Shown piece by piece: positions 51,897-51,950 of a stretch of 64,000 bases of DNA. Each line of letters opens with the position of its first letter. Position 1 is the stretch's first letter. This stretch comes from Malacoraja senta (Eukaryota): NCBI GenBank assembly GCA_038087875.1, contig CM075987.1, positions 26,662,001-26,726,000 on the forward strand, given 5' to 3'. A program made the translations under genes and the position numbers. A model generated the notes under the pieces. The model did not search any database and was not told the DNA's origin. It was given only the letters and a program-made list of their open reading frames with translations.

Positions 51897-51950
51897 GGGG
51901 TGGGAGATTGCAACCTTCACGTGGTCCGCCCTGTTTCGACGAATGCAATC
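51897..51950 (+). ncRNA. Minimal HDV-like (CPEB3-type) self-cleaving ribozyme, 54 nt
   Basis: P1 GGGGUGG(51897-903)/CCGCCCU(51926-932) with G1-U wobble; P2 GAUUGCA(51906-912)/UGCAAUC(51944-950); P3 ACC/GGU; L3 UUCACGU; GU; UUCG mini-P4; J4/2 CGAA (C51940). Confidence 0.85.

What the first reader, a model, noticed from the sequence alone, without database searches (positions are those of the whole stretch)
51897..51950. Complete minimal HDV/CPEB3-type ribozyme forming the exact 5' end of a short element
Seen: the 54 nt parse fully into the nested double pseudoknot. P1 is GGGGUGG/CCGCCCU, starting with the G1-U wobble. P2 is a perfect 7 bp (GAUUGCA/UGCAAUC), P3 is ACC/GGU and L3 is UUCACGU. Then come GU, a U-A-closed UUCG loop in place of P4, and J4/2 CGAA. 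Established: this is the HDV-family topology, with the J4/2 C as the catalytic C75 equivalent. L3 UUCACGU and a one-pair P1.1 match the mammalian CPEB3 ribozyme as I recall it. HDV-like ribozymes process the 5' ends of R2, RTE and L1Tc/ingi retroelements. Inference: this is an active P4-less ribozyme that cuts the element RNA out of host read-through transcripts, so no Pol III promoter is needed. Copies lying sense in introns could also cleave host pre-mRNA.
Basis: partly seen in the sequence, partly recalled or inferred. Interest (0 to 1): 0.9.

Follow-up and report, generated by a model that had tools for sequence, protein, structure and literature searches.

The report
Ribozyme-headed short retroposon, P4-less HDV type
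The 54 bases are the first part of a roughly 135-base jumping element, present in thousands of copies in this animal-sized genome, and they fold like the hepatitis-delta self-cutting RNA but lack one of its usual arms, which most likely lets the element cut its own start out of any host transcript.

Summary
Window 51897-51950 parses as an HDV/CPEB3-type nested double pseudoknot: G1·U wobble, P1 of 7 bp, P2 of 7 bp, P3 of 3 bp, L3 UUCACGU, C22-G37, and a 4-nt J4/2 CGAA. It has no P4, only a 5-nt linker.

The fold alone is weak evidence: 0.05 chance hits per window. The context decides it.
- **Copy number.** A 29-nt core of the ribozyme has 8,988 matches in the genome.
- **Exact 5' end.** Copies are about 135 nt and end in ...ACGCAAG(AAG)n. 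In 72 of 82 copies they carry target-site duplications, and 57 of these abut G1 exactly.
- **Two relatives found through the tail.** One is a 204-nt non-autonomous family (597 matches). The other is an RTE-like LINE with a single APE+RT ORF of about 1000 aa and a ~14-nt 3' UTR. Both start with the same fold, with a P4 region.
- **Covariation.** Across the three lineages, 11 of 18 pairs change on both sides.
- **Rfam.** The window copy gives no hit. The 204-nt family hits an HDV-like model below threshold.

Best reading: a bipartite non-autonomous RTE-type retroposon whose head is a minimal HDV-like ribozyme. Cleavage, and any expression, remain untested. It is a new variant of a known kind. 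This scan had not noted it before.

The parts
51897..52022 (+). One copy of the short non-autonomous retroposon, called family 1 here. It is 126 nt in the window; the reference copy L041 is 135 nt.
   Evidence: blastn and MAFFT against 30 loci. 88.9% identity to reference copy L041, a 10-nt internal deletion shared with L021, and no target-site duplication detected.
51897..51950 (+). P4-less HDV/CPEB3-type ribozyme fold. The predicted cleavage site is 5' of G51897.
   Evidence: Sequence; descriptor scan; covariation. Identical to the ribozyme of reference copy L041, which equals the majority sequence of alignment A2.
51897..51903 (+). P1 5' strand, GGGGTGG. G51897 pairs as a wobble with T51932.
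   Evidence: P1 cells are 95.6% paired, and 3 of 7 pairs change on both sides between lineages.
51906..51912 (+). P2 5' strand, GATTGCA.
   Evidence: P2 cells are 99% paired, and 6 of 7 pairs change on both sides.
51913..51925 (+). P3 (ACC/GGT) enclosing L3 TTCACGT. U20·G25 and C22 (the P1.1 partner of G51933) sit as in CPEB3.
   Evidence: CPEB3 features from PMC4836649 and PMC10919898. C22-G37 becomes U-A in the LINE.
51926..51932 (+). P1 3' strand, CCGCCCT.
   Evidence: Both the G and the A form at 51928 occur many times among the 100 exact core matches listed genome-wide. They give U·G or U-A, both of which pair.
51933..51939 (+). G37 U38, then the 5-nt linker TTCGA that stands where P4 would be.
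   Evidence: Family 2 has 18 nt here, including a 5-bp P4. The LINE has 38 nt.
51940..51943 (+). J4/2 CGAA. C51940 is the candidate catalytic cytosine.
   Evidence: The definition 'first position of J4/2' is from PMC10879173. The first C and the final AA are kept in family 1, family 2 and LINE copy L111; the second base varies between G, T and C.
51944..51950 (+). P2 3' strand, TGCAATC.
51956..52009 (+). 3' module. A long hairpin (GGCGTGCACA / TGTGCACGCC) encloses a small hairpin (AAGTTGT / ACAACTT).
   Evidence: Fold of the same part of L041: -23.9 kcal/mol, z = -3.64, 0 of 200 shuffles fold as well.
52010..52022 (+). Decayed 3' terminal box and tail, ATAACCAAGAAG(A). In younger copies it reads ATA(C/T)GCAAG(AAG)n.
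   Evidence: Alignment. The box ACGCAAG(AAG)n is shared with family 2. A close form is at the LINE 3' end.

Best explanation
The 54 nt are the head of a short, non-coding, non-LTR retroposon of the 'bipartite non-autonomous LINE' (SIDE-like) type. The proposed cycle is as follows.
1. The element has no promoter of its own that I can recognise. It is transcribed as a passenger of whatever transcript runs through it (inferred).
2. The head folds into a minimal, P4-less HDV-like ribozyme and cleaves 5' of G1. This frees an RNA that starts exactly at G1 (inferred from the anatomy; cleavage not shown).
3. The RNA ends in a hairpin followed by a single-stranded A(T/A)ACGCAAG(AAG)n.
4. An RTE-like LINE of the same genome carries a closely similar terminal box, and its reverse transcriptase uses this end for target-primed reverse transcription (inferred).
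5. Copying runs to the RNA's 5' end. New copies therefore begin at G1 and are flanked by target-site duplications with a median of 11 bp (shown).

The LINE and a second, 204-nt non-autonomous family carry the same ribozyme architecture with a P4 region. Family 1 is the stripped-down version.
For: 1. **Fold.** It is present as described and is the only descriptor hit in the window.

2. **Abundance.**
- 8,988 genome matches to a 29-nt ribozyme core at up to 3 mismatches; the reversed-pattern control gives 0.
- The 30 best tail matches all carry the ribozyme segment upstream, intact or damaged.

3. **5' ends.**
- 72 of 82 copies have duplications, and 57 of them abut G1. Re-paired flanks give a mean of 1.8 of 82.
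- 81 of 107 HSPs start at query base 1.
- In contigs of coded runs X1, X5 and X7, diverse flanks meet the element at locus positions 1444-1445, where 1445 is G1. Joints that skip 152 nt with a 9-nt overlap look like empty sites.

4. **Independent prediction met twice.** Both relatives were found through the tail, not through the fold.
- Family 2 (597 core matches) begins at G1 of a full HDV-like fold.
- An RTE-like LINE begins with the fold at the point where copies L110 and L111 become alike.

5. **Covariation.**
- 29 sequences of the three lineages, aligned by MAFFT without gaps over columns 1-38 and at the 3' end.
- 97.5% of cells are paired.
- 11 of 18 pairs change on both sides: 3 in P1, 6 in P2, 1 in P3 and 1 in P1.1.
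- Slid controls give 2-5 such pairs, and 0 of 500 shuffles reach 11.

6. **Rfam.** RF02682 (an HDV-like ribozyme model) matches family 2 end to end at 32.8 bits, E = 5.9e-4, and the LINE head at 19.9 bits.

7. **No Pol III-type head.** No Rfam hit at E <= 10 and no tRNA.

8. **Activity of P4-less forms.** P4-less HDV-like ribozymes cleave in vitro (PMC10879173, passages seen).

9. **The idea is in print.** Bipartite non-autonomous LINEs of RTE, Ingi, Vingi and R2 are described, with the 5' ribozyme proposed as the reason they keep the LINE's exact 5' end (PMC5786205, passages seen).

10. **The LINE fits RTE features as listed in PMC2887409** (passages seen): a single APE+RT ORF of about 1000 aa, a ~14-nt 3' UTR made of simple repeats, and non-specific insertion with duplications of 6-12 bp.
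Against: - No cleavage assay and no RNA evidence exist. No listed run is on record as RNA, and the laid data are contigs.
- Rfam gives nothing for the window copy even at E <= 10. The family 2 hit is below the gathering score (32.8 against 44).
- The bare fold is expected by chance 0.05 times per window.
- The covariation rests on only three lineages. The LINE parse came from a relaxed descriptor of my own, and only two LINE 5' ends were compared.
- One of those two, L110, has T instead of C at the catalytic position if J4/2 is 4 nt.
- Family 1 and the LINE share the fold, and a closely similar 13-nt terminal box plus repeats, but little other sequence. I found no LINE that starts with the family 1 ribozyme or that shares 25 nt or more of its tail. 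The partner assignment is therefore inferred.
- Both LINE 3' ends that I read carry ACGACAG, not ACGCAAG. Five other copies carry ACGCAAG.
- In trypanosome L1Tc the same first 77 nt act both as promoter and as ribozyme (PMC3383444, abstract seen). A promoter role here is not excluded.
Confidence: 0.8

Rival explanations
1. The exact 5' end is set by transcription initiation at G1 from an internal promoter (Pol III, or Pol II as with Pr77 of L1Tc). On this view the conserved fold has another role or none, and cleavage is not what defines the end.
For: Internal promoters also give precise 5' ends. In L1Tc/NARTc the first 77 nt are both promoter and HDV-like ribozyme (PMC3383444, abstract seen). 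I have no RNA data.
Against: No match to tRNA, 7SL, 5S or any other Rfam family at E <= 10, and no tRNA by ARAGORN. Three lineages with different primary sequence keep all helices and the C..AA of J4/2, which a promoter would not require. A dual role is still possible.
Confidence: 0.08
2. The fold is conserved as a binding or stabilising structure for the LINE protein, as the R2 5' pseudoknot is bound by R2 protein. On this view the P4-less family 1 version is catalytically dead or too slow, and its 5' ends reflect cleavage only in an ancestral form or some other processing.
For: R2 protein binds a pseudoknot within its ribozyme (PMC6765202, passage seen). Loss of P4 might impair folding. Rfam models do not recognise the window copy.
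Against: Family 1 is the most successful of the three lineages by 29-31-nt core matches at up to 3 mismatches: 8,988 against 597 for family 2 and 104 for the LINE 5' end. Its copies start exactly at G1. Natural P4-less HDV-like ribozymes are active in vitro (PMC10879173). The catalytic C, G1·U, U20·G25 and C22-G37 are all kept.
Confidence: 0.1
3. It is a chance resemblance: an ordinary repeat whose first 54 nt happen to fit the HDV descriptor.
For: The descriptor alone hits 0.05 times per shuffled window. A scan of very many windows would therefore throw up such hits.
Against: Two further families found through their tail have the fold at their exact 5' ends. 11 of 18 pairs covary. There is a sub-threshold but end-to-end Rfam HDV-like match for family 2.
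Confidence: 0.02

Closest known systems
HDV-like ribozymes at the 5' ends of non-LTR retrotransposons (R2, RTE, LOA/Baggins, L1Tc/ingi)
   Same: The same nested double pseudoknot sits at the very first nucleotides of the element. The same presumed job applies: freeing the element RNA from a co-transcript. The RTE-like LINE of this genome has such a head.
   Different: The window's version has no P4 and is only 54 nt. It sits on a non-coding element of about 135 nt in an animal-sized genome, with about 9,000 core matches. The primary paper on RTE ribozymes (Ruminski et al. 2011) is not held. I know it only through citations in PMC5786205 and PMC6765202.
Bipartite non-autonomous LINEs / SIDEs (R2 SIDEs, NARTc/RIME, RTE-derived RTESINE and WALLSI3)
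   Same: Head plus tail of a LINE with no ORF, mobilised in trans. The exact LINE-type 5' end is kept, for which a ribozyme has been proposed as the reason (PMC5786205; PMC3414825, abstract seen).
   Different: Head and tail are not simple copies of the LINE found here. Only the fold and a closely similar terminal box, ACGCAAG(AAG)n, are shared. The head has lost P4.
Minimal HDV-like ribozymes (drz-Mtgn-1, theta ribozymes of gut phages)
   Same: They lack the P4 domain, keep the catalytic C at the first position of J4/2, and are of about the same size (PMC10879173).
   Different: Those are reported from metagenomes and Caudoviricetes phages, often next to tRNAs. This one heads a retroposon in a eukaryote-sized genome. 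[quoted passage not shown]
Mammalian CPEB3 ribozyme
   Same: Same numbering over the first 38 nt: G1·U36, L3 UUCACGU at 20-26, U20·G25, C22-G37 plus U21·U38, and a 4-nt J4/2 beginning with C followed by G.
   Different: CPEB3 has a P4 hairpin and is a single intronic locus of mammals. The Rfam scans, which included every family in the library, gave no hit here. P1 and P2 sequences differ. The L3 core is also close to that of a bacterial HDV-like model, so the likeness does not show descent.

Membership tests
HDV-like (delta-like) self-cleaving ribozymes | Nested double pseudoknot: P1 and P2 cross, and P3 with P1.1 lies inside. | tested here: met
   Sequence parse; the only descriptor hit in the window; 97.5% of cells paired and 11 of 18 pairs covary over three lineages.
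HDV-like (delta-like) self-cleaving ribozymes | Cleavage-site G1 in a G·U wobble closing P1. | tested here: met
   G51897·T51932. G·U in 27 of 29 aligned sequences. Feature as described in PMC4836649.
HDV-like (delta-like) self-cleaving ribozymes | Catalytic cytosine at the first position of J4/2. | tested here: met
   C51940 of CGAA. Definition from PMC10879173. Met by sequence only; its chemistry was not tested.
HDV-like (delta-like) self-cleaving ribozymes | U20·G25 pair at the base of P3, and a P1.1 pair from L3 to the base after P1. | tested here: met
   L3 is U20 U21 C22 A23 C24 G25 U26, followed after P1 by G37 U38. C22-G37 occurs in 27 sequences and U-A in the 2 LINE sequences. Features from PMC4836649.
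HDV-like (delta-like) self-cleaving ribozymes | P4 helix between P1 and J4/2. | tested here: not met
   Only the 5 nt TTCGA lie there. P4 is absent from the published minimal forms too, so this moves the element to the minimal sub-type rather than out of the class.
HDV-like (delta-like) self-cleaving ribozymes | Match to a curated covariance model (Rfam). | tested here: not met
   Window: 0 hits at gathering score and 0 at E <= 10. Family 2: RF02682 at 32.8 bits against a gathering score of 44, E = 5.9e-4. LINE head: 19.9 bits.
HDV-like (delta-like) self-cleaving ribozymes | Mg2+-dependent self-cleavage giving a 5'-OH G1, abolished by C to U. | not testable with these tools
   This needs a bench assay.
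Minimal HDV-like / theta ribozymes | P4-less core. | tested here: met
   definition.
Minimal HDV-like / theta ribozymes | Phage or metagenome setting, often with the cleavage site next to a tRNA 3' end. | tested here: not met
   1.94-Gb genome with dispersed copies carrying target-site duplications. No tRNA nearby.
CPEB3 ribozyme family | Single conserved locus in an intron of mammalian CPEB3, with a P4 hairpin. | tested here: not met
   Thousands of dispersed copies, no P4, and no hit in Rfam scans of the whole library.
Bipartite non-autonomous LINE / SIDE | No ORF, LINE-type tail, target-site duplications, dispersed copies. | tested here: met
   About 135 nt, (AAG)n tail, duplications in 72 of 82 copies with a median of 11 bp.
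Bipartite non-autonomous LINE / SIDE | 5' and 3' ends derived from an identifiable autonomous LINE. | tested here: inconclusive
   The candidate LINE shares the head architecture and a closely similar terminal box. No LINE has the same head sequence or 25 nt or more of the tail.
Classical SINE (Pol III head) | Head derived from tRNA, 7SL or 5S, with an internal promoter. | tested here: not met
   No Rfam match at E <= 10 and no tRNA.
RTE clade (for the candidate partner LINE) | Single ORF of about 1000 aa with AP endonuclease and RT, a very short 3' UTR of simple repeats, and duplications of 6-12 bp. | tested here: met
   Relatives P0005, P0006 and P0014 are 998-1019 aa with PF03372, PF14529 and PF00078, on contigs of 3.1-3.4 kb. 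The stop codon is followed by about 14 nt and then (AAG)n. Criteria from PMC2887409.
RTE clade (for the candidate partner LINE) | Placement inside the RTE clade in an RT phylogeny. | not tested
   No named reference LINE proteins were on hand.

The most novel reading that the evidence does not exclude
Family 1 would be a new kind of vertebrate-scale SINE-like retroposon whose head is not a Pol III gene but a 54-nt, P4-less HDV ribozyme. That would be the first natural minimal delta-like ribozyme outside phages.

Thousands of copies that still fit the fold, including the window's, would then be cleavage-competent. They would cut any host Pol II transcript that reads through them in sense.

Single exapted ribozymes such as the one in mammalian CPEB3, which shares its core numbering, could be relics of heads of this kind.
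Probability: 0.3. Interest if true: 0.75.

Novelty: new variant of a known kind. Interest (0 to 1): 0.58.

Why it matters
- **Minimal form in a new setting.** It would show that the HDV fold can lose P4 entirely and still, presumably, drive the spread of a retroposon to thousands of copies in an animal genome. That would extend 'minimal' delta-like ribozymes from phages to eukaryotic mobile DNA.
- **A test of a published idea.** It offers a clean natural system of three related heads, with and without P4, plus a candidate partner LINE. This allows a test of the idea that a 5' ribozyme is what lets LINEs spawn head-plus-tail parasites.
- **Possible cut sites in host transcripts.** It flags roughly 9,000 potential self-cleavage sites that could matter for host transcripts.
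- **Assay-ready.** The 54-nt RNA is small enough for direct biochemical and structural work.

Tried and rejected
**Rfam on the window.** Nothing at gathering score or at E <= 10.

**Search for a LINE that starts with the family 1 ribozyme.**
- The pattern was the ribozyme's 3' end followed by bases that differ from family 1.
- It gave 58 matches. Of the 30 made into loci, I printed 16.
- Together with the matched strings, they were internal-deletion variants, disrupted copies or nested copies.

**The same search for family 2.** 2 matches, both decayed copies.

**Search for a LINE sharing 25 nt or more of the family 1 tail.**
- 58 and 101 matches.
- The recurrent contexts I fetched turned out to be a second family 1 subfamily (L091-L094) or copies split by nested insertions (L095-L098).

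**A general P3/L3 motif pattern that excludes both families.** 163 matches. The 100 listed were all mutated family 1 or family 2 copies.

**Tail-box patterns threw up two false leads.**
- 'ATAACAGGATCCATACATAAGAAGAAG' is an internal piece of a long repeat on many small contigs.
- 'AACCCTCAGAACTCGACGCAAG...' lies inside a retroelement ORF.

**Descriptor scan of all 357 kb held at that point.** Apart from family 1 (31 sites) and family 2 (5 sites), only 2 other sites appeared, both probably chance.

**Expression.**
- No RNA holder is listed, and the run kinds are guesses.
- The four runs laid are contigs, so they say nothing on RNA starts or levels.

**Nested-only MFE of the 54-mer.** It is no better than shuffles (z = +0.92). 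This is uninformative for a pseudoknot.

**Host-gene context of the window copy.** Of the 76 ORFs of 110 aa or more I scanned 12. Three showed LINE-type reverse-transcriptase or related domains, one gave two weak sub-threshold matches, eight gave nothing, and none showed a host gene. Whether the copy lies in an intron is unknown.

**Papers not held.** Ruminski et al. 2011 and Webb et al. 2009.

**Search for P4-less HDV-like ribozymes in eukaryotes in print.** 'lack the P4' and 'minimal HDV-like ribozymes' gave only phage, metagenome or design papers. Two searches of an incomplete library cannot show that none is in print.

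Full report
**What is at the coordinates.**
One search shows window 51897-51950 as GGGGTGG GA GATTGCA ACC TTCACGT GGT CCGCCCT GT TTCGA CGAA TGCAATC.
- P1 has 7 pairs and starts with G51897·T51932.
- P2 has 7 Watson-Crick pairs.
- P3 is ACC/GGT around a 7-nt L3.
- After P1 come G37 U38.
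- J4/2 is CGAA, with C51940 first.

The only slip is arithmetical. Five bases (TTCGA) stand where P4 should be, so the 'U-A-closed UUCG loop' would have to borrow U38. This is a linker, not a helix.

Published descriptions of the CPEB3 ribozyme give G1·U36, the U20·G25 wobble, a P1.1 made of one G-C and one U-U pair involving C22, and a 4-nt J4/2 with the active cytosine (PMC4836649, passages seen). A mouse primer that starts 18 nt from the cleavage site reads G-TTCACGT-CGC (PMC10919898, passage seen). The window sequence matches all of these positions with the same numbering.

**Is the fold more than chance?**
- On its own, barely. A descriptor of my own (G1; P1 of 7 bp; P2 of 6-8 bp; P3 of 3 bp; L3 of 6-8 nt; a C three bases before the P2 3' strand) hits only this site in the window.
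- It also hits 0.05 sites per dinucleotide-shuffled window, with 25 of 500 shuffles positive.
- Rfam finds nothing in the window at gathering scores, and nothing at E <= 10 around the site.
- The nested-only MFE is no better than shuffles, which is expected for a pseudoknot.

The case therefore rests on context.

**The element.**
The window lies in a 1.94-Gb assembly.
- The 64 bases from 51897 find 40 scored copies at 92-100% identity.
- Aligned with flanks, similarity to the window begins at 51897 in 24 of 31 copies, and within -6/+2 nt in the other 7. It ends near 52022.
- The reference copy L041 is 135 nt. It consists of the 54-nt head, a hairpin module, and ...ATA(C/T)GCAAG followed by (AAG)n.
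- The 3' part alone gives 994 first-look candidates. The 30 best all carry the head upstream, intact or damaged.
- A 29-nt core of the head has 8,988 matches at up to 3 mismatches, against 0 for the reversed control.

Target-site duplications:
- In 57 it ends at the base before G1. In the rest it ends 1 nt (6 copies), 2 nt (7) or 3 nt (2) before G1.
- Re-pairing upstream and downstream flanks between copies gives a mean of 1.8 of 82.

Several copies are 99% identical to the reference copy L041, so the family was active recently.

The window copy is older. It is 88.9% identical to the reference copy, has a 10-nt deletion shared with L021, has a decayed tail, and shows no duplication. Its head is still identical to that of L041 (100%), which is also the majority sequence of alignment A2.

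**Subfamilies.**
A second subfamily (L091-L094) keeps the head and the last ~27 nt but has a different middle. Its head differs from the main one at two places.
- The P1 partner of U5 is G in one and A in the other. These give U·G and U-A, which both pair. Both forms are common among the 100 exact core matches listed.
- The second base of J4/2 is G in one and T in the other.

A third common difference is G or A at position 8, in the unpaired J1/2. None of these recurrent differences breaks a helix.

**Two relatives found through the tail, not through the fold.**

*Family 2.*
- A pattern for the terminal box that excluded family 1 uncovered elements ending ...CTGCTG(A/C)CTCAAACGCAAG(AAG)n.
- They are about 204 nt, with 836 first-look candidates and 597 core matches. 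I call them family 2.
- They begin GGGGCTC A TGTTGTCG ACC TCCCCGT GGT GAGCCCT GT ... CTGAC CTCA GTCAG G CGAA CGACAACA. This is a complete HDV-like fold with a 5-bp P4.
- Duplications again abut G1.
- Rfam's HDV-like model RF02682 aligns to it end to end at 32.8 bits, E = 5.9e-4, below the gathering score of 44.

*The candidate LINE.*
- A further tail pattern matched a sequence already held on the minus strand of L049. It is the C-terminal part of a reverse-transcriptase ORF with a zinc-knuckle-like end, a stop codon, about 14 nt (AAGACACACGACAG) and then (AAG)n.
- Longer relatives of that protein are 998-1019 aa with AP-endonuclease and RT domains, on contigs of 3.1-3.4 kb.
- The genome holds many copies at 75-80% identity to one of them. 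Some have long open frames.
- Another copy ends in the same way (L113).
- This architecture fits the RTE features listed in PMC2887409: a single ORF of about 990 aa, a 14-bp 3' UTR made of (GAA) repeats, duplications of 6-12 bp, and non-specific insertion (passages seen). I did not build a phylogeny.

*The LINE's 5' end.*
- I fetched the DNA just upstream of the ORF start of three copies.
- Two of them, L110 and L111, become alike exactly at GGGGGAG AC AAAGACA GCC T(C/T)TACGC GGC CTCCTC(C/T), followed by 38 nt, then (C/T)CAA and TGTCTTT. This is the same topology at the LINE's first bases.
- The third, L112, shows no such start.
- The LINE 5' core has 104 matches. 52 of them are dispersed copies with up to 2 mismatches, and some lie about 120 nt upstream of the ORF matches.

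So both tail-sharing relatives that I examined start with the fold.

**Covariation.**
I aligned 22 family 1, 5 family 2 and 2 LINE heads with MAFFT. The alignment has no gaps over columns 1-38 or over the last 12 columns. Counting the stated structure gives the following:
- 97.5% of 522 cells are paired.
- 11 of 18 pairs change on both sides: 3 of 7 in P1, 6 of 7 in P2, 1 of 3 in P3, and the single P1.1 pair (C-G to U-A).
- Sliding the partners gives 2-5 such pairs and 32-46% pairing.
- No shuffle of 500 reaches 11.
- With family 1 and family 2 alone, the figure is 6 pairs.

Caveats: there are only three lineages, so each pair records at most two events. The within-family copies are dead-on-arrival and add only noise. 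The LINE parse came from a relaxed descriptor. One of the two LINE copies has T at the catalytic position.

**Mechanism.**

Shown:
- the anatomy;
- copy number;
- 5' ends at G1;
- target-site duplications;
- the terminal box shared with family 2, and in a close form with the LINE;
- conservation of the fold through compensatory change.

Inferred:
- The element is transcribed as part of longer transcripts. No tRNA, 7SL or 5S likeness is present.
- The head cleaves 5' of G1.
- The RTE-like reverse transcriptase recognises the hairpin plus the single-stranded A(T/A)ACGCAAG(AAG)n. All three 3' ends fold as a stem followed by an unpaired box.
- Target-primed reverse transcription runs to the cleaved end.

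P4-less HDV-like ribozymes are known to cleave in vitro (PMC10879173), so the lack of P4 is no bar.

The general idea is in print. PMC5786205 describes head-plus-tail non-autonomous LINEs of RTE, Ingi, Vingi and R2. It suggests that a 5' ribozyme explains why they keep the LINE's exact 5' end. R2 SIDEs and NARTc are worked examples.

**Other organisms and RNA.**
- Near-identical words of the element occur in runs carrying nine organism codes from 13 studies.
- In contigs of three of the four runs laid, many different flanks meet the element at locus positions 1444-1445, where 1445 is G1.
- Some contigs join the two flanks with a 152-nt skip and a 9-nt overlap. These look like the empty site of the L041 insertion.
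- None of this bears on expression. No run is on record as RNA, and contigs cannot show RNA ends.

**What it is not.**
- Not a member of the CPEB3 family: it is not a single mammalian locus, it has no P4, and the whole-library Rfam scans gave no hit.
- Not a theta ribozyme: no phage and no tRNA.
- Not a classical SINE: no Pol III head.
- The L3 identity with CPEB3 is real, but the core consensus of a bacterial HDV-like Rfam model is nearly the same. It marks the class, not descent.

**Novelty and verdict.**
- HDV-like ribozymes on RTE-type LINEs, and ribozyme-headed non-autonomous derivatives, are known kinds.
- New here are the natural loss of P4 in a eukaryotic retroposon head, its small size (54 nt), and its success (about 9,000 core matches against 597 for the P4-bearing sister family and about 52 dispersed LINE 5' ends).
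- My two searches for P4-less forms outside phages and metagenomes found none, but the library is incomplete and the key 2011 and 2014 papers are not held.
- This scan's earlier notes hold nothing on this genome or on this sequence.
- I rate it a new variant of a known kind, well supported by comparative evidence and lacking only the bench test.

Noticed in passing
L099:506-699, L100:491-695, L102-L107: Family 2 is a second non-autonomous retroposon of about 204 nt, with 597 core matches. It has a full HDV-like ribozyme (5-bp P4) at its exact 5' end, the same ACGCAAG(AAG)n end, and duplications abutting G1.
   Followed up: yes
L110:184-268, L111:184-268; L049:1750-2885 (minus strand); L113: An RTE-like LINE with a single APE+RT ORF of about 1000 aa. 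It has an HDV-like fold at its first bases and a ~14-nt 3' UTR followed by (AAG)n. It is the candidate partner of both short families. A copy with open frames and no stops lies at G000:C1:197208061-197211214 and was not fetched.
   Followed up: partly
G000 places listed (e.g. L069, L075, L076, L079-L085): More than 20 family 1 copies share one identical internal deletion, in which GCAATC is joined to AAATAAGATCA. The deletion removes the 5' arm of the long 3' hairpin. Either this is a deletion subfamily that still moved, in which case the hairpin is dispensable, or the same slip between AATCA repeats recurred.
   Followed up: no
window 51453-51884; L027:1391-1891: The window copy sits next to another interspersed repeat. 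In L027 a copy of that same repeat is itself split by a family 1 insertion with a 9-bp duplication (ACCCTTTGT).
   Followed up: partly
L101 (G000:C618:76930-77530) and many small contigs: A long repeat unit, spaced about 55 kb apart on C618 and present on dozens of small unplaced contigs, holds both the string ATAACAGGATCCATACATAAGAAGAAG and a 5'-altered piece of the LINE head (TGGTCAAAGACAGCC...). It looks like a large tandem or segmental unit that once captured a LINE fragment.
   Followed up: no
window 8964-10337 (+), 53011-53703 (-), 17525-18109 (-): Open frames with reverse-transcriptase (PF00078) and ALKBH8_N-type (PF09004) matches. These are fragments of other LINEs. No host gene was recognised among the 12 of 76 long ORFs that I scanned.
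   Followed up: partly
window 60728-60927: A run of 200 N, which is an assembly gap.
   Followed up: no
L108, L109: A retroelement ORF contains the string ACGCAAGAAGAAG inside its coding sequence. The two copies are 93% alike over 627 nt. It is unrelated to the tail box and was a false lead.
   Followed up: yes
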